Origin: Dehalococcoidia bacterium
GTDB taxonomy: Bacteria; Chloroflexota; Dehalococcoidia; Lucifugimonadales; UBA1127
Direction of reading: 5' to 3'
Assembly: GCA_965261405.1 (NCBI GenBank)
Contig: CBDHDD010000002.1
Coordinates: forward strand, 1,075,880-1,139,879
Length of the DNA stretch: 64,000 nt
The translations under genes and the position numbers were made by a program. Every line of letters starts with the position of its first letter. Position 1 is the first letter of the stretch. Under the pieces are notes generated by a model. The model worked only from the letters and a program-made list of their open reading frames with translations, searched no databases and had not been told where the DNA came from. Positions 3,370 to 43,195 of this stretch are shown here, one piece after another.

Positions 3370-6696
<3,327 letters not shown>

Positions 6697-35310: not shown

Positions 35311-35575
35311 AGGTTGTTTTGGCATTCGATTTGTAGCTGGCGTGGCACACTTTAGCTACAAATCCAAGAATTTTTTTACAGAGAGAAAACAACCCCTCCT
35401 GTTGCTTGACGTGCTGCCATTGGCCATCGCTGTGGACCATGCCACCAACGATTAGGACGGCGCTCACGACGGTGTGGGAAGCCGTGATGTTGTGGTTGCG
35501 GTGGGGGTTTGCGACTACCATGGGGAGACGGTAGCGTTCTTCGGAGCGATGGGGCAAGAGGGCCGTGTCAGGGTG
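35311..35575 (+). repeat. long noncoding element family, copy A (first unit of a 309-bp tandem pair)
   Basis: Outer stem GGTTGTTTT / AAAACAACC encloses hairpin TTGTAGCT-loop(GGCGTGGCACACTT)-AGCTACAA. The tail ends GTGTCAGGGTG. Confidence 0.6.
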
Positions 35576-35620
35576 CGCCGACGCGCACGGGGTGGGGTTG
35601 CTGGTTTCATGGGAACGAGG

Positions 35621-35884
35621 ACTCGTTTCGGTAGTCGAATCGTAGCTGGCGTGGCACATTTCAGCTACAACTCCAATCTTTTGTTGCAAAACGGGCCCCC
35701 ACCCCTCCTGTTGCTTGACGCGCCGCCTCTGGCCATCGCTGTGGACCATGCCACGGACGTATAGGACGGCGCACACGACGGTGTGGGGGGCCGTGATGTC
35801 GTGGTTGCGGTGGGAGTTTGCGACTACCATGGGGAGACGGTAGCGTTCTTCGGAGCGATGGGGCAAGAGGGCCGTGTCAGGGTG
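35621..35884 (+). repeat. long noncoding element family, copy B (second unit of the tandem pair)
   Basis: Near-identical to copy A over the 3' two-thirds. Hairpin GTAGCT-loop(GGCGTGGCACATTTC)-AGCTAC. Tail GTGTCAGGGTG lies 309 bp after that of copy A. Confidence 0.6.
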
Positions 35885-35940
35885 GCGCGCCGTGCTGGGG
35901 GTGGGGGTGACGGCGGCGTGGGAACGGCGCGTGCGGGGGA

Positions 35941-36466
35941 CCCCCTTCGAGTGTCCTCAGGACAGGCTTTGACAGGCTCAGGGTGAACGGGGAACATCGC
36001 GCCACCTCTCTGGGTTCGTGCCTTCGCGGGAATGACGGTGAGGTTGGGTGGGTTCGTTGAGGGTGTTGGTAGAGGAAGGTGAGGTTCCCGCCTGCGCGGG
36101 AACGACGGGATGGGGCGGGAACGACAATGGGGTGGGGCGGGACGGCAAGTGCCGGTGGTCGCGGGAGGCCCCCTTCGAGTGTCCTCACGACAGGCTTCGA
36201 CAGGCTCAGGGCGAACGGGTGTTGGGGGGTGCGGGGTTCCACGATGGTGGGCTGTGATGGGGTTGCCCGGCCCGGCGCCCCTCTGGATACCGGCTTTCGC
36301 CGGTATGTCGGTGGGGTGGGGCGGGTTTGTTGAGCTTGTTGGTTGAGGAAGGTGAGGTTCCCGCCTGCGCGGGAACGACGGTGGGGTGGGAACGACGGTG
36401 GGGGGGTGTGGGTCGGTTGGCGCTGCTGGTCGCGGGGGGCCCTTCGACAGGCTCAGGGCGAACGGA
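35941..36466. repeat. composite REP-like array (types A and B) with an internal duplication of about 274 bp
   Basis: REP-B at 35941-35992, 36169-36219 and 36438-36465. REP-A hairpins at 36084-36103, 36288-36307 and 36357-36376. Block 36045-36219 is repeated at 36319-36465. Confidence 0.7.
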
Positions 36467-36554
36467 GTTGCGAGGGGGCCGTACGAATTTTGGCGTTTGG
36501 GGTGTTCCGACGGTGGGTGGGTTGGTATTACGAAACTTTGGTGAGAGGGATGAG

Positions 36555-37385
36555 ATGTACGGACTTGAGGGTAAGGTGGCTTTGGTTACTGGGGCTGGCG
36601 GGGAGAATGGGATGGGCCGGGGGATTGCGACTCGGCTGGCGCGGGAGGGGGCGGATGTGATCGTGAATGACTTCACGGCTATTCCGTACCCGGACCGCCC
36701 TTGGCGCGGGGTGTCGTCGGTGGTCGAGGAGATCGAGGAGATGGGGCGGCGGTCGAAGGCGATCATCGCGGACGTGTCGGACACGGCGCAGGTGGGGGCG
36801 ATGTTCGCGGAGGCGGTGGCGGAGTTCGGGAAGATTGACATCGTCGTATCGAACGCAGGCTCGCGGCCCGGGGGCGATCGGAAGGTGATGGTCGACGTGT
36901 CGGACGAGGACTTCGACCTGGTGCAGCGGGTGAACGTGCGGGGGACGTGGCTGGTGTGCCAGGCGGCGGCTCGGCACATGATTGCGCGCGGCGGGGGCGG
37001 CCGGATCATCACGATGTCATCGCGCGCGGGCAAGACGGGGACGGCGACGTACGCGGCGTACTGCGCGAGCAAGTTTGCGGTGATTGGGATCACGCAGAGC
37101 CTGGCGCTGGAGTTGGCGCAGTACGGGATCACGGTGAACGCGATCTGTCCGGGGCTGGTGGACACGGAGCGGGTGGACTACATCGCGGCGGCGACGGCGC
37201 CCGAGGGGCAGAGTGCGATGGAGCACCGGGCGTTCATGGTGCGGGAGCGGTCGGCGACGATCCCGCTGGGACGGCTGGCCGTGGCAGCGGACATCGCGCG
37301 GGTGGTGGCGTTCCTGGCGTCGGAGGAATCGGACTACGTCACGGGGCAGGCGCTGAACGTGGCGGGGGGGTACGAGGTGCATTAG
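36555..37385 (+). CDS. short-chain dehydrogenase/reductase (SDR)
   Basis: 276 aa from MYGLEGKVALVTGAGGENGMG (TGxxxGxG), with the catalytic YAAYCASK (YxxxK). The upstream part of the ORF is REP-derived and rejected. Confidence 0.85.
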   Translation: MYGLEGKVALVTGAGGENGMGRGIATRLAREGADVIVNDFTAIPYPDRPWRGVSSVVEEIEEMGRRSKAIIADVSDTAQVGAMFAEAVAEFGKIDIVVSNAGSRPGGDRKVMVDVSDEDFDLVQRVNVRGTWLVCQAAARHMIARGGGGRIITMSSRAGKTGTATYAAYCASKFAVIGITQSLALELAQYGITVNAICPGLVDTERVDYIAAATAPEGQSAMEHRAFMVRERSATIPLGRLAVAADIARVVAFLASEESDYVTGQALNVAGGYEVH

Positions 37386-37491
37386 GTGGGGGGGTGGATT
37401 CTAGCCTTTCATCTGGAGGGGAAGGAATGAAAGTGGGCGACCAACAAAACTGCATACCTGTCGCTTTACCCTGCCAACCCTCCCTATAGGG

Positions 37492-38184
37492 TCAGGCAAA
37501 TACAGCATAAGGAATGTCCCACTGCTTGAGCTGGGATGCTATAAAGTCCATAACGCGACATATCCGAGCAATCTCTTCCTCAAAGGCAGAGTCTGACAGG
37601 CTCATAGCAAGAAACGTATGCCCATGGCGTGGCCCTAAGACTGCGTCAAGCGTCCCTTCACGTTTACTGGAAGGACGTGGTGACCACGCGATGTCCTCCC
37701 GGCCCATAATCTGTCGGAACAGTGACAAGTATCCATGTGCTAGGGCGTCGCGGGCGAAAGTCACCCTAGCAAGGTCATCCTTTAGTTCTTGCGTCATCTC
37801 ATCATCAAAGCACTCCAGGAACACTCCTCTTAAACTCTCTGAGGATAGTTGCTCCAACTTGAGGGTTGCGGCTCGGGATAGGTCGGATGGGAATTGCTTA
37901 CCGTTGTCTCTCGCAGCACTTTCCTTCAATTCAGGACTCTCGTGAAAGCAGATTAGTGCTACCATCTGGCTTTGAAGCCAAAGCGCTGCTGTCAATAGTT
38001 TGCCGTGGCGACCAAACACGTCCTTTTCGTTTAGCAGATACAGCAGAAAGTGGGGAGGCATGCCTTCGGCCATGGGCTTTGCGTCAAATATGGTCTTCCA
38101 TTCCAAAGTTGGCTTGGGCGTGCCCTCATCCTGATGTGGCTTCGGCGTACCTTTGTCTTGGCGACGTCGTTCTGCTCTATTCAT
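37492..38184 (-). CDS. hypothetical protein with an R-x4-H (HEPN-like) motif, in the low-GC island
   Basis: 230 aa from ATG 38184 behind GGAG. Duplicated GTPKP in a basic N-terminus, and an FARDALAHG segment. Composition much lower in G+C than the flanks. Confidence 0.55.
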   Translation of the reverse strand: MNRAERRRQDKGTPKPHQDEGTPKPTLEWKTIFDAKPMAEGMPPHFLLYLLNEKDVFGRHGKLLTAALWLQSQMVALICFHESPELKESAARDNGKQFPSDLSRAATLKLEQLSSESLRGVFLECFDDEMTQELKDDLARVTFARDALAHGYLSLFRQIMGREDIAWSPRPSSKREGTLDAVLGPRHGHTFLAMSLSDSAFEEEIARICRVMDFIASQLKQWDIPYAVFA

Positions 38185-38312
38185 ATCTTTGTTCTCCAAT
38201 TGGCCCTCTTTACAGGAACCAATGCAAGAGTGATCCCCGGCGTCGGACTTCTAACCGGATGCCCACTTCAGGAGAGTGGCAAGCCAATGAGGGTCGTACT
38301 AGGCGGAGTCCA

Positions 38313-38873
38313 CTATGCCGAATCAGGTTTCTCTCTCAGTTCTTTAGTTCTTTGGACGAATCCGTCGACCCGTGCTTGATGCGTGTACGCTTGCTCGAGG
38401 GCCGTGCCAAGGTAATCCAAAATGTCTTCGACTTCTTTAGCGTCAAAGGTGTCAACGTCGATGTCATCATGCCCCGAAATGTTGGCCCAGAGGCGTAGTT
38501 GATCGACTGCTGCGAAAATGGCAGGGGTGATGATCTGCTTCTCCGCCAGCTCTTTGTAACTCTTCGCTTGCTTGTCACCTAAGAATCGTTCAAGCGCGAT
38601 GCGACCGGCCATAAGAGCCGCTAGATTGGCACCTGCGGCGTGCGCGATACGAGCGTTCTCGTATGCTTCCCTTACCTTTTCCGGGACACCAGCGGGCGCT
38701 GGTGGGCAGGTGAGAGGCCAAACTGGGCGCCTCCTTTCCGCAACGAAAAATCCCGAACAGGCCATACATTGCACTATGGACATGTCACTTACCGCAAGGC
38801 TGTTTCCGTCCCTGAGTGACACGGGTTCGTTAGGGGTAAATGAATTGCAACGAGGACATTTGACGCTGGCCAC
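38313..38873 (-). CDS. zinc-ribbon protein with a DUF4145-like C-terminal domain, in the low-GC island
   Basis: 186 aa from GTG 38873 behind GAGAGG. CPRC...CMAC ribbon and an LRLWANISGH signature resembling DUF4145. Confidence 0.55.
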   Translation of the reverse strand: MASVKCPRCNSFTPNEPVSLRDGNSLAVSDMSIVQCMACSGFFVAERRRPVWPLTCPPAPAGVPEKVREAYENARIAHAAGANLAALMAGRIALERFLGDKQAKSYKELAEKQIITPAIFAAVDQLRLWANISGHDDIDVDTFDAKEVEDILDYLGTALEQAYTHQARVDGFVQRTKELREKPDSA

Positions 38874-39043
38874 AAGGACTACCTCTCGTCGGATGACTTG
38901 CAGACTCAAAAGATAGGGTAGCAAGGCCACAGGCTGTGTCGCTAGGACTCTGTGGGTTCTTTTTGGCCAAATGGGACTACTGGAGAGTTGCCACTGCTGG
39001 GGTCTTGGACCGGAGGCGGTCGATTCGGGAGACGCCACTACGC

Positions 39044-39132
39044 ACCCCCTCATCCCCGCCCCTCTGGATTCCTGCCTCCGTAGGAATGACGCGGGTAGGG
39101 CAGGCCCTTCGACAGGCTCAGGGCGAACGGGG
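39044..39132. repeat. REP-like array, type A hairpin + type B
   Basis: CCCCTCATCCCC...CTCTGGATTCCTGCCTCCGTAGGAATGACGCGG followed by GGCCCTTCGACAGGCTCAGGGCGAACGGGG. The same modules recur at 40152, 43196 and elsewhere. Confidence 0.75.
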
Positions 39133-39171
39133 CTTGGGGTTTGCGTTGCAGCAATCGTGGGGCGGCGGCGC

Positions 39172-42235: not shown

Positions 42236-43120
42236 CTAGCGACTCCACGGATCTGGAGGTATAAAAGGTTGTCGCAATACCCGCTTATGCTCCTCATATG
42301 CCTCCTTTACCTCCGCCTTATGTGGCGGTAACTTTAGCAACTCACACCTTCGCCGATGATCTTGGCACTCAGAGTGCATAGCACACTCCCAATCCAGACT
42401 CATATCATCACTATGCCTATCTTGAATGACCGGTGCATTCATCAAATTTGGGTAGGGATCCCCCGCATGAACTTTCAAGGCAAATGGGAAAATAGACTCG
42501 TCAACCGGAATAGTCGCGTGAGGATTCACCCATAAAATGGCCCGCCGGTGCTGCCATTCTAAGACGGCGGAAAGTGACGAACCGGAAAACGCTGGAGCAG
42601 TTGGACCATATTTCTCTACAATGAGACTCTTTGTTCCACTCTTGACAACCTCTTTAGAAGACTTGGAAACAATCACATAGAATGACGAATCTCCATAGAG
42701 AACATCTGCAGCCTCATGCCACTCCTCCGACTGATTGCACAATGCAATCACGTAAGCTAAGCCGTCCCTCTCACATAGAGACCCATACGTCACGACCTTG
42801 ACTGATACAACCTCATAGAGTCGCTTTCCAGACTCTTCTACTGAACCTCCATGCCCATATCCGCCAGTCGTATTCATGAGGTTCTGAAATTCCACCTTTA
42901 ACTGAAGCAACGCACACTCAACAATGGTCGAGTCACCAACCTTCAGGTCAGGCGTCTTACCCCAAAGCCTTGGATGATGATCTACTTCAATCCCATGATT
43001 CCTGAATCGTGAAGCCAAAGAATGTTCCCAACACAAAGCGAGAGGATTTGCACCCTCTTCCATTGACATCCCATATAGCCGTGAACACCGAGGAAGATAA
43101 TGATATGGCACCCTCGCCAT
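42236..43120 (-). CDS. hypothetical protein, low-GC orphan
   Basis: 294 aa from ATG 43120 behind GGGAGGG. Composition near half G+C. No domain recognised. Confidence 0.55.
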   Translation of the reverse strand: MARVPYHYLPRCSRLYGMSMEEGANPLALCWEHSLASRFRNHGIEVDHHPRLWGKTPDLKVGDSTIVECALLQLKVEFQNLMNTTGGYGHGGSVEESGKRLYEVVSVKVVTYGSLCERDGLAYVIALCNQSEEWHEAADVLYGDSSFYVIVSKSSKEVVKSGTKSLIVEKYGPTAPAFSGSSLSAVLEWQHRRAILWVNPHATIPVDESIFPFALKVHAGDPYPNLMNAPVIQDRHSDDMSLDWECAMHSECQDHRRRCELLKLPPHKAEVKEAYEEHKRVLRQPFIPPDPWSR

Positions 43121-43195
43121 TACTTCCCTCCCTTCTGATTCTCGCATCACTCTAGATACTCCTCTAGGTTACACAGATATATGAGCCCCAAGGGA

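What the first reader, a model, noticed from the sequence alone, without database searches (positions are those of the whole stretch)
37386..39171. Low-GC two-gene island: Zn-ribbon/DUF4145-like protein plus an R-x4-H (HEPN-like) partner, candidate defence or toxin module
Seen: between the SDR stop (37385) and the aldolase stop (39172) the G+C content falls abruptly. Sampled 60-nt stretches are near half G+C, against roughly two-thirds in the flanking genes. Two same-strand ORFs with good Shine-Dalgarno sites fill the gap, separated by about 128 nt. The upstream ORF (38313-38873) has a CPRC...CMAC zinc ribbon and a helical C-terminal part with LRLWANISGH. I recognise that as the DUF4145-type signature, a domain often fused to restriction or abortive-infection proteins. 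The downstream ORF (37492-38184) has a basic N-terminus with a duplicated GTPKP motif and an FARDALAHG segment. That is an R-x4-H motif of the kind that builds the HEPN RNase active site. The right border is a REP-A+REP-B array (39044-39132). Inference: this is a horizontally acquired two-gene module, plausibly an abortive-infection or toxin-type system. I do not recognise the pairing as any named defence system.
Basis: partly seen in the sequence, partly recalled or inferred. Interest (0 to 1): 0.7.

Follow-up and report, generated by a model that had tools for sequence, protein, structure and literature searches.

The report
Two separate HEPN-type defence genes
The low-GC gap holds two stand-alone candidate anti-phage RNase genes that landed side by side in a variable hotspot: one is a distant relative of the recently solved RAZR (PD-T7-4) protein, and the other belongs to an unnamed family with a HEPN-like catalytic motif.

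Summary
G+C is 0.50-0.55 between the SDR and the aldolase, against 0.65-0.70 in the flanks. Two minus-strand ORFs lie 128 nt apart, and REP elements mark the right border.

ORF A (38313-38873) has a Cys4 zinc ribbon plus DUF4145. It matches the PADLOC PD-T7-4 model, and its best structural match is RAZR. RAZR is a single-gene abortive-infection RNase described in 2026. A is a distant Chloroflexota member of that family.

ORF B (37492-38184) matches no library. Its R145-D-x3-H150 motif is invariant even in relatives of about 20% identity. The weak hits of those relatives go mainly to HEPN families. B is probably a new HEPN-like family, but the fold is not confirmed.

The "two-gene system" reading is mostly not supported:
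- B lacks A in 14 distinct contexts elsewhere, and A lacks B in 5.
- The pair occurs only in the window's own lineage.
- Within that lineage B was replaced by a divergent allele independently of A (dS 1.3 against 0.1-0.26).

The aldolase-SDR gap is a variable cargo hotspot. One caveat remains: a distant B relative again sits just downstream of a different zinc-ribbon-DUF4145 protein (L032), so a loose functional link cannot be excluded.

The parts
37386..39171 (.). Low-GC accessory island between the SDR stop and the HpcH/HpaI-aldolase stop. In related genomes this gap is a variable cargo hotspot.
   Evidence: G+C is 0.50-0.55 against 0.65-0.70 in the flanks. The same aldolase-SDR gap holds different cargo in L001, L014, L017/L018 and L019.
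38313..38873 (-). Gene A, 186 aa: a RAZR/PD-T7-4-type protein with an N-terminal Cys4 zinc ribbon and a C-terminal DUF4145 (divergent HEPN) domain.
   Evidence: Pfam DUF4145 E=1e-5, above the cut-off. PADLOC PD-T7-4 E=3.4e-6, and 19 of 22 family members hit that model as their only PADLOC family. phrog_1305 E=6.4e-15. The AF2 model has pLDDT 85 and its best PDB match is RAZR 9y9c.
38724..38873 (-). Zinc-ribbon domain of A (residues 1-50; C6, C9, C36, C39). It is the most variable part of the family.
   Evidence: The model shows strands at 3-5, 12-14, 31-35, 42-46 and 49-52. Every invariant column of the family alignment lies at residue 52 or later, and insertions are confined to this region. 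The RAZR paper likewise reports its ZFD as the most variable region and the one that sets specificity.
38469..38495 (-). Predicted catalytic R127-x7-H135 of A (QLRLWANISGH).
   Evidence: R127 and H135 are invariant in 26 homologues. The spacing equals that of R146/H154 in E. coli RAZR, where alanine substitutions abolish defence.
38185..38312 (-). 128-nt spacer between A and B.
   Evidence: No consensus promoter or terminator, no repeats and no Rfam match. The 120 nt upstream of B differ from L017/L018 at only a few positions.
37492..38184 (-). Gene B, 230 aa: an unnamed, mostly alpha-helical family and a candidate divergent HEPN RNase.
   Evidence: No Pfam, NCBIfam, PADLOC or PHROG match. 80 homologue clusters were found, none named. 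The AF2 model has pLDDT 84.5. A search of 1.84 billion representative proteins found only 49 relatives.
37729..37752 (-). R145-D146-x3-H150-G151-Y152 motif of B (RDALAHGY).
   Evidence: R145 and H150 are two of only four residues invariant across relatives of 16-23% identity, whose consensus is LRNAIAHSHVS. The motif lies at the C-terminal end of helix 132-150. The HEPN superfamily review places Rx4-6H at the end of helix 3, usually followed by a polar residue.
38104..38184 (-). Basic N-terminal tail and variable linker of B (MNRAERRRQ..., GTPKP twice).
   Evidence: MNRAERRR is conserved in most family members. The linker varies in length and sequence, and the 180-aa distant relatives lack it. 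pLDDT is below 55.
37600..38199 (-). Mosaic tract: the part of B that was replaced by a divergent allele relative to the closest relatives.
   Evidence: Identity to L018 is 64-82% here, with no gaps. It is 100% at 37500-37599 and mostly 90-100% (80% at lowest) in A and the spacer. dS is 1.30 for B against 0.09-0.15 for the flanks and 0.26 for A; dN/dS is 0.11.
39061..39127 (-). Two REP-type interspersed repeats at the right border (39061-39090 and 39105-39127).
   Evidence: There are 3 and 7 copies in the window, with none expected by chance.

Best explanation
The island holds two independent single-gene modules that accumulated in a variable hotspot between the aldolase and the SDR of a Dehalococcoidia-type (Chloroflexota) genome.

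Gene A is a distant member of the RAZR/PD-T7-4 family. By inference from the E. coli protein, its variable zinc ribbon would bind a large ring-shaped phage protein such as the portal. The protein would then polymerise around that ring. This would align the DUF4145/HEPN domains so that R127 and H135 form active RNase sites. Non-specific RNA cleavage would stop translation and abort the infection.

Gene B belongs to an unnamed family. Its only universally conserved polar residues form an R-[D/N]-x3-H motif at the end of a helix. It is most likely a metal-independent HEPN-type RNase toxin or effector that acts on its own, probably as a homodimer with a composite active site. It would stay silent until a trigger arrives.

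What is shown: the domain assignments of A, the conservation patterns, the lack of linkage between A and B, and the independent allele replacement of B. What is inferred: RNase activity, the triggers, the oligomerisation, and any phage phenotype.
For: Gene A:
- Pfam DUF4145 above the cut-off.
- PD-T7-4 is the only PADLOC family hit, for the window protein and for 19 of 22 homologues.
- The best Foldseek PDB match is RAZR 9y9c over 174 columns (probability 0.87), followed by HepT-type HEPN toxins.
- R-x7-H is invariant, with the same spacing as the catalytic R146/H154 of RAZR.
- The zinc ribbon is the variable part, as reported for RAZR.
- Homologues stand alone next to toxin-antitoxin pairs, R-M fragments, a NACHT protein and transposases.

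Gene B:
- R145 and H150 are invariant across the superfamily.
- Five of the 14 weakly matched Pfam families are HEPN families: RiboL-PSP, MAE_28990, Swt1, pEK499_p136 and Apea. These include the only four families hit by more than one member. The weak PADLOC hits go to RTasHEPN (8 members), Cas13c and Csm6, plus a single Type II methyltransferase hit.
- The motif position and the polar residue after R fit the HEPN rule.
- dN/dS of 0.11 shows the gene is under purifying selection.
- Neighbours elsewhere include a patatin effector, PLD-SNF2 helicases, LmuB-like, type IIG R-M, PIN toxin-antitoxin pairs and a tRNA-Pro.
- G+C is below that of the host in all 15 loci measured.

Independence of A and B:
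- No A or other zinc-ribbon-DUF4145 ORF lies near B in 14 distinct contexts.
- A occurs without B in 5 contexts, two of them in the same hotspot.
- B's dS is 1.30 against 0.26 for A in the one lineage that has both, and the divergent tract is confined to 37600-38199.
- In L017, A carries an 11-bp frameshifting insertion while B is intact.
Against: - The sequence link between A and RAZR is weak: 24.7 bits to the PADLOC model, about 18% identity, Foldseek E=0.037 and TM about 0.4. No PDB sequence match was found.
- B's HEPN fold is not confirmed. Foldseek against PDB and BFVD gives nothing significant; the HepT structure 7ae6 reaches probability 0.13. Profile comparison with the DUF4145 family is null. 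All HEPN-family hits of B's relatives are below threshold.
- A distant B relative lies 193 nt downstream of another zinc-ribbon-DUF4145 protein in L032. Full independence does not predict this.
- No expression or phenotype data exist.
- No cognate phages are known for these uncultured hosts.
Confidence: 0.6

Rival explanations
1. A and B form a genuine two-gene system. The RAZR-like sensor-RNase would work with B as a second HEPN effector, a regulator or an immunity partner, and the pair would be co-transcribed from one promoter.
For: The genes share a strand, lie 128 nt apart and have no predicted terminator between them. The arrangement is kept in L017 and L018. The same order and orientation recurs at great distance in L032, where a 213-aa zinc-ribbon + DUF4145 protein (21% identical to A) sits 193 nt upstream of a 181-aa B relative.
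Against: The pair is absent from 14 distinct B contexts and 5 A contexts. B was exchanged independently of A within the lineage. A is frameshifted in L017 while B is intact. RAZR works as a single gene in E. coli. The L032 protein does not match the PD-T7-4 model and abuts the stop of an N6-methylase gene (coordinates overlap by 1 nt), an association already known for DUF4145.
Confidence: 0.12
2. B is not a nuclease or a defence gene. It would be a helical protein with some other role, such as a nucleic-acid-binding regulator that uses its basic N-terminal tail, or a cargo gene of small mobile elements. Its R-x4-H would be structural or ligand-binding.
For: No significant match to any HEPN model or structure. 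Many HEPN-fold domains are non-catalytic. Several contexts are housekeeping, for example between a tRNA-Pro and rpsL in L005/L006 and beside CTP synthase in L025.
Against: R and H are two of only four residues invariant at about 20% identity, and D or N follows R in nearly every sequence aligned, as in catalytic HEPNs. The sub-threshold hits go mainly to catalytic HEPN families. The patchy distribution, low G+C, allele mosaicism and defence or toxin-antitoxin neighbours are typical of conflict genes.
Confidence: 0.2
3. A is a DUF4145 accessory or remnant of a restriction-modification system rather than a RAZR-like abortive-infection protein.
For: DUF4145 is often fused to, or in an operon with, R-M components. 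In L019, A follows an Mrr_cat gene. In L022-L024 it follows Eco57I-type fragments.
Against: No R-M gene lies in the window island. The upstream neighbours differ between contexts. The full-length architecture (zinc ribbon + DUF4145, about 190-200 aa) and the sole PADLOC hit both match PD-T7-4.
Confidence: 0.08

Closest known systems
RAZR (ring-activated zinc-finger RNase; formerly PD-T7-4), E. coli UMB1727; Zhang et al., Nature 2026 (PMC13017515); PDB 9y9c
   Same: Gene A is a single polypeptide of about 190-210 aa with an N-terminal Cys4 zinc ribbon and a C-terminal DUF4145/HEPN domain. Its R-x7-H spacing matches the catalytic pair of RAZR. The zinc ribbon is the most variable region. The gene stands alone in defence-type neighbourhoods. 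RAZR is the best structural match and PD-T7-4 the only PADLOC match.
   Different: The relationship is very distant: about 18% identity over the structural alignment and 24.7 bits to the family model. The host phylum is Chloroflexota (uncultured Dehalococcoidia-type MAGs). A is about 25 residues shorter. Oligomerisation, ring-protein triggers and RNase activity are untested.
HepT / DUF86 HEPN toxins of HEPN-MNT toxin-antitoxin modules (e.g. PDB 7ae6, 5yep)
   Same: Gene B carries R-[D/N]-x3-H-x-Y at the end of a helix, which resembles (from memory) the RNxxxHxY active-site motif of HepT. One B homologue gives a faint HepT-like Pfam hit (E=0.14). 7ae6 appears among B's weak Foldseek hits.
   Different: No MNT nucleotidyltransferase antitoxin lies next to B in any context. 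B is 230 aa against about 135 aa, has an extra region of about 45 residues after the motif and a basic N-terminal tail. None of the matches is significant.
Other single-gene DUF4145/HEPN defence proteins: BxaP (PMC10799925) and Ishtar (bioRxiv 10.64898/2026.07.06.735840); Abi-type HEPN proteins catalogued by Anantharaman et al. 2013 (PMC3710099)
   Same: These are monogenic, patchily distributed, defence-island-associated HEPN proteins that are thought to act through RNA cleavage.
   Different: BxaP and Ishtar have DUF4145 at the N-terminus with other C-terminal domains. A has the reverse order, with a zinc ribbon first. B matches none of their models.

Membership tests
RAZR / PD-T7-4 (gene A) | N-terminal Cys4 zinc-ribbon domain | tested here: met
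   CPRC (C6, C9) and CMAC (C36, C39) are present. C36/C39 are nearly invariant, and C6/C9 are present in most full-length homologues. The AF2 model shows five short strands in residues 3-52, with weak Foldseek hits to the zinc ribbons LysW and Trm112.
RAZR / PD-T7-4 (gene A) | C-terminal DUF4145 (divergent HEPN) domain with conserved catalytic Arg and His | tested here: met
   Pfam PF13643 scores 25.9 bits against a cut-off of 23.1. R127 and H135 are invariant in 26 sequences with x7 spacing, as in RAZR R146/H154.
RAZR / PD-T7-4 (gene A) | Match to the family's own sequence model or structure | tested here: met
   PADLOC PDLC04109 gives E=3.4e-6 over profile positions 14-161 of 211, and 19 of 22 homologues hit it alone. 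Foldseek's top hit is 9y9c_OA at probability 0.87 and E=0.037. The match is weak in absolute terms, and there is no PDB hit by sequence.
RAZR / PD-T7-4 (gene A) | Functions as a single gene without a conserved partner | tested here: met
   Neighbours differ in all 6 contexts examined, and B is present in only one lineage.
RAZR / PD-T7-4 (gene A) | Polymerises around phage ring proteins (portal, Gp77) and then cleaves ssRNA; abortive infection | not testable with these tools
   This needs protein biochemistry, cryo-EM and phage assays. No cognate phage is known.
HEPN superfamily (gene B) | Conserved Rx4-6H motif, with a polar residue (N/D/H) after R | tested here: met
   R145-D-A-L-A-H150 is present. 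R and H are invariant across 32 sequences down to 16% identity, and D or N follows R in nearly all sequences aligned. One of 30 close homologues has Q...N instead.
HEPN superfamily (gene B) | Motif located at the end of core helix 3 of a four-helix up-down bundle | tested here: inconclusive
   The motif ends helix 132-150 of a confident, mostly alpha-helical model, as the rule requires. The four-helix core could not be superposed, because Foldseek hits to HEPN structures reach a probability of at most 0.13.
HEPN superfamily (gene B) | Significant profile or structure match to a known HEPN family | tested here: not met
   Pfam, NCBIfam, PADLOC, PHROGs, the PDB sequence search, Foldseek against PDB and BFVD, and hhalign against DUF4145 all gave nothing. 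There is only a cluster of sub-threshold hits to HEPN models among distant relatives.
HEPN-MNT (HepT-MntA) toxin-antitoxin (gene B) | Adjacent minimal nucleotidyltransferase antitoxin gene | tested here: not met
   No conserved neighbour was found. Upstream regions share nothing across contexts, and no NTase domain appears in the annotated neighbours.
Conserved two-gene defence system (A + B) | Co-occurrence of both genes across unrelated genomes | tested here: not met
   The pair occurs only in the window, L017 and L018, which are one lineage. B lacks A in 14 distinct contexts and A lacks B in 5. There is one distant recurrence in L032.

The most novel reading that the evidence does not exclude
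Zinc-ribbon-DUF4145 (RAZR-like) proteins and the B superfamily would be loosely coupled partners. In this reading B is a second, interchangeable HEPN module recruited downstream of RAZR-like sensors. It could act as a backup effector or as a guard against phage inhibitors of RAZR. That would explain why the same order, strand and spacing of roughly 130-190 nt recur in two pairs that share only about 20-25% identity. It would also explain why the B allele is swapped by recombination while the flanks stay fixed.
Probability: 0.12. Interest if true: 0.6.

Novelty: new variant of a known kind. Interest (0 to 1): 0.4.

Why it matters
Gene A extends the RAZR family into Chloroflexota. RAZR was characterised only in 2026 in enterobacteria and is activated by assembling around phage ring proteins. 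A gives a very divergent sequence set (72 clusters) for asking which features of ring sensing are conserved.

Gene B defines a small, unnamed protein family. A search of 1.84 billion representative proteins found only 49 relatives. The family has an invariant R-[D/N]-x3-H signature and carries no annotation in any library, so it is a candidate new branch of HEPN RNases that a simple toxicity and mutant test could check.

The locus is also a clean natural example of a cargo hotspot with allele-level cassette replacement. The practical lesson is that adjacency inside such a hotspot should not be read as a system.

Tried and rejected
- Two-gene system: tblastn and an HMM search for A, plus a scan for CxxC...CxxC ORFs, around every B locus found nothing outside the window lineage.
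- Common ancestry of A and B: hhalign of the two families gave probability below 1%.
- Conserved non-coding partner or antitoxin for B: flanks are unrelated between contexts. The island has no repeats, no Rfam match, and no consensus promoter or terminator.
- Phage or plasmid origin: there were no hits in IMG/VR, in GenBank phages or in PLSDB plasmids. The only viral link is A's match to phrog_1305.
- Direct sequence comparison with RAZR: PDB sequence searches with A, with its profile and with the L032 protein found no RAZR chain.
- Structural assignment of B: Foldseek against PDB and BFVD gave only generic helical bundles.
- Metagenome scan for A: it returned a single extra locus. One look-up found no record.
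- Contexts of the 180-aa B relatives: only three could be fetched before the look-up cap. One was too short, one was uninformative, and one was L032.
Full report
**1. Observation**

The 1.8-kb gap between the SDR stop (37385) and the HpcH/HpaI-type aldolase stop (39172) has a G+C of 0.50-0.55. Both flanks are at 0.65-0.70.

The gap holds two minus-strand ORFs:
- A runs from 38313 to 38873 (186 aa). It has a GTG start with GAGGT 7 nt upstream.
- B runs from 37492 to 38184 (230 aa). It has an ATG start with GGAG 9 nt upstream.
- The two are separated by 128 nt.

The right border carries two interspersed repeat types, at 39061-39090 and 39105-39127. They have 3 and 7 copies in the window, with none expected by chance.

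**2. Gene A is a RAZR/PD-T7-4-type protein**

A passes Pfam DUF4145 (25.9 bits against a cut-off of 23.1). Its only PADLOC hit is PD-T7-4 (E=3.4e-6, profile positions 14-161 of 211). Nineteen of 22 homologues also hit that model and nothing else. A also matches phrog_1305 (E=6.4e-15).

An AlphaFold2 model (pLDDT 85.3) shows a small beta-rich zinc ribbon at residues 3-52, followed by a helical domain. Its best PDB match is chain OA of 9y9c, the RAZR:Gp77 complex (174 columns, probability 0.87, E=0.037). HepT-type HEPN toxins come next.

PD-T7-4 was renamed RAZR in Zhang et al., Nature 2026 (PMC13017515). The paper reports the following:
- It is a single-gene abortive-infection protein with an N-terminal Cys4 zinc finger and a C-terminal DUF4145 domain, which is a divergent HEPN RNase.
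- R146 and H154 are required for defence.
- The protein assembles as a 24-mer around phage ring proteins (the portal, or Gp77) and then cleaves ssRNA non-specifically.
- The zinc finger is the most variable region and sets specificity.

In A's family, R127 and H135 are invariant and have the same x7 spacing. All invariant columns lie at residue 52 or later. The zinc ribbon carries all the length variation.

Homologues of A stand alone in changing neighbourhoods. These include HigB/HTH, HsdR_N, PIN/RHH, Eco57I fragments, a 1738-aa NACHT protein, transposases and an Mrr_cat gene.

The link to RAZR is distant: about 18% identity, with no PDB hit by sequence. I therefore file A as a distant member of the family. 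The mechanism is inferred rather than shown.

**3. Gene B is an unnamed family with a HEPN-like signature**

B matches nothing in Pfam, NCBIfam, PADLOC or PHROGs. It has 80 homologue clusters, none named. A profile search of 1.84 billion representative proteins found only 49 hits. These include proteins of about 180 aa with 16-23% identity to B.

Across that wider set only W69, F126, R145 and H150 are invariant. The consensus around the motif is LRNAIAHSHVS.

The model (pLDDT 84.5) places R145...H150 at the C-terminal end of helix 132-150. [quoted passage not shown] B fits both points.

The sub-threshold hits of the distant relatives go mainly to HEPN models:
- Pfam: RiboL-PSP, MAE_28990, Swt1, pEK499_p136 and Apea, which are 5 of the 14 families hit and include the four most frequent.
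- PADLOC: RTasHEPN (8 members), Cas13c and Csm6, plus one Type II methyltransferase hit.

Nothing reaches significance, however:
- Foldseek against PDB and BFVD gives only generic helical bundles.
- The PDB profile search is empty.
- hhalign against the DUF4145 family is null.

B is therefore a probable, unconfirmed, new HEPN-like family.

**4. A and B are not a conserved pair**

Twelve GTDB genomes (MAGs labelled Dehalococcoidia, Chloroflexota or Caldilineaceae) carry B. None has an A homologue within 6 kb. Further metagenomic contigs give the same result.

An HMM search for A, plus a scan for any CxxC...CxxC ORF within 2 kb upstream or 1.5 kb downstream of B, found nothing. In total there are 14 distinct B contexts without A. 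Conversely, A occurs without B in 5 distinct contexts.

The pair exists only in the window and its two closest relatives, L017 and L018.

The aldolase-SDR gap is itself a variable hotspot:

| Locus | Cargo between aldolase and SDR |
|---|---|
| Window, L017, L018 | A and B |
| L001 | An alpha/beta-hydrolase, B and NhaA |
| L014 | A and two small ORFs |
| L019 | Five other genes including Mrr_cat, then A and a 137-aa ORF |

**5. Different histories inside the one lineage that has both genes**

The comparison is between the window and L018:

| Region | dS |
|---|---|
| Flanking genes | 0.09-0.15 |
| A | 0.26 |
| B | 1.30 (dN/dS 0.11) |

The divergent tract is confined to 37600-38199. It has no gaps. 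The last 100 nt of B are 100% identical, and the A-B spacer is 90-96% identical.

An internal segment of B was therefore replaced by a divergent allele while A and the surrounding DNA stayed in place. In L017, A also carries an 11-bp frameshifting insertion while B is intact. This could still be an assembly error.

**6. Context of B elsewhere**

B's G+C is below that of the rest of its locus in all 15 loci measured (0.48-0.58 against 0.56-0.71). Its neighbours within 6 kb include:
- a patatin-type effector,
- PLD-SNF2 helicases (BrxH/DrmD-like),
- an LmuB-like SMC ATPase plus DUF4238,
- type IIG R-M / DrmMI,
- several PIN toxin-antitoxin pairs,
- transposases and a serine recombinase,
- a tRNA-Pro.

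No neighbour is conserved, and the flanks share no sequence. The mobile unit is essentially the ORF.

**7. The caveat**

The last context look-up showed a 181-aa distant B relative in L032. It lies 193 nt downstream of, and on the same strand as, a 213-aa protein with a zinc ribbon (KCPYC...CTNC) and a DUF4145 domain. That protein aligns end to end with A at 21% identity.

The L032 protein does not match the PD-T7-4 model. It abuts the stop of an N6-methylase/Eco57I gene, with coordinates that overlap by 1 nt. This is an association already known for DUF4145. An ISL3 transposase follows the B-like gene.

Two occurrences of the same order among roughly 17 contexts may simply reflect co-residence in defence islands. 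I therefore keep a 0.12 probability for a real functional link.

**8. Verdict**

The low-GC island is real accessory DNA. It contains two independent single-gene HEPN-type modules: a distant RAZR homologue, and a member of an unnamed family with an R-[D/N]-x3-H motif.

The "two-gene module" inference is largely not supported. The statement that no named system matches is superseded by PD-T7-4/RAZR.

Novelty is moderate. A is a new, very divergent member of a known family. B is a candidate new branch of a known superfamily.

Noticed in passing
window 42236-43150 (-): A second low-GC single-gene islet (G+C about 0.50 against 0.68) encodes a 304-aa protein with no Pfam match. It lies between hydantoinase B and the TPP enzyme. 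L017 and L018 lack it: there the two flanking genes are adjacent.
   Followed up: partly
L032 5166-6546: A 213-aa zinc-ribbon + DUF4145 protein is followed after 193 nt by a 181-aa distant relative of B. Both are embedded in a type I/IIG R-M locus interrupted by an ISL3 transposase. This repeats the window's gene order at about 21-25% identity.
   Followed up: partly
L014 3827-3953 and 4471-5320; L019 6669-6804 and 7324-8452: A copy of about 136 bp of the SDR 3' end (window 37259-37394) is duplicated on either side of a 137-aa ORF of unknown function. This looks like a target-site or att-type duplication left by an insertion at the SDR end of the hotspot.
   Followed up: no
window 37600-38199 compared with L018 6001-6590: The tract is a gap-free mosaic. 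Identity is 64-82% inside B but 100% in its last 100 nt and 90-96% in the spacer. This indicates homologous replacement of an internal gene segment by a divergent allele.
   Followed up: yes
L017 about 5650-5660: An 11-bp insertion (GACTGTAGACC) frameshifts the A homologue, while the adjacent B is intact. It may be a real pseudogene or a long-read assembly error.
   Followed up: partly
L005 5817-5891; L006 4930-5001: B lies just downstream of a tRNA-Pro(TGG) and upstream of rpsL/rpsG/fusA. In L006 an extra 160-aa ORF sits between the tRNA and B. This is a typical tRNA-adjacent insertion site.
   Followed up: partly
window 35400-36560: Dense arrays of REP-type repeats lie upstream of the SDR, with strong positive GC skew. 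The mechanical 352-aa SDR ORF (36327-37385) probably starts near 36555, as in the 276-aa homologues called in L014, L017 and L019.
   Followed up: no
L019 633-5889: In this relative the hotspot also carries a 224-aa unknown protein, a Lactamase_B protein with a weak anti-Pycsar Apyc1 hit, an AMP-binding/PP-binding/acyltransferase gene and an Mrr_cat nuclease, all upstream of the A homologue.
   Followed up: no
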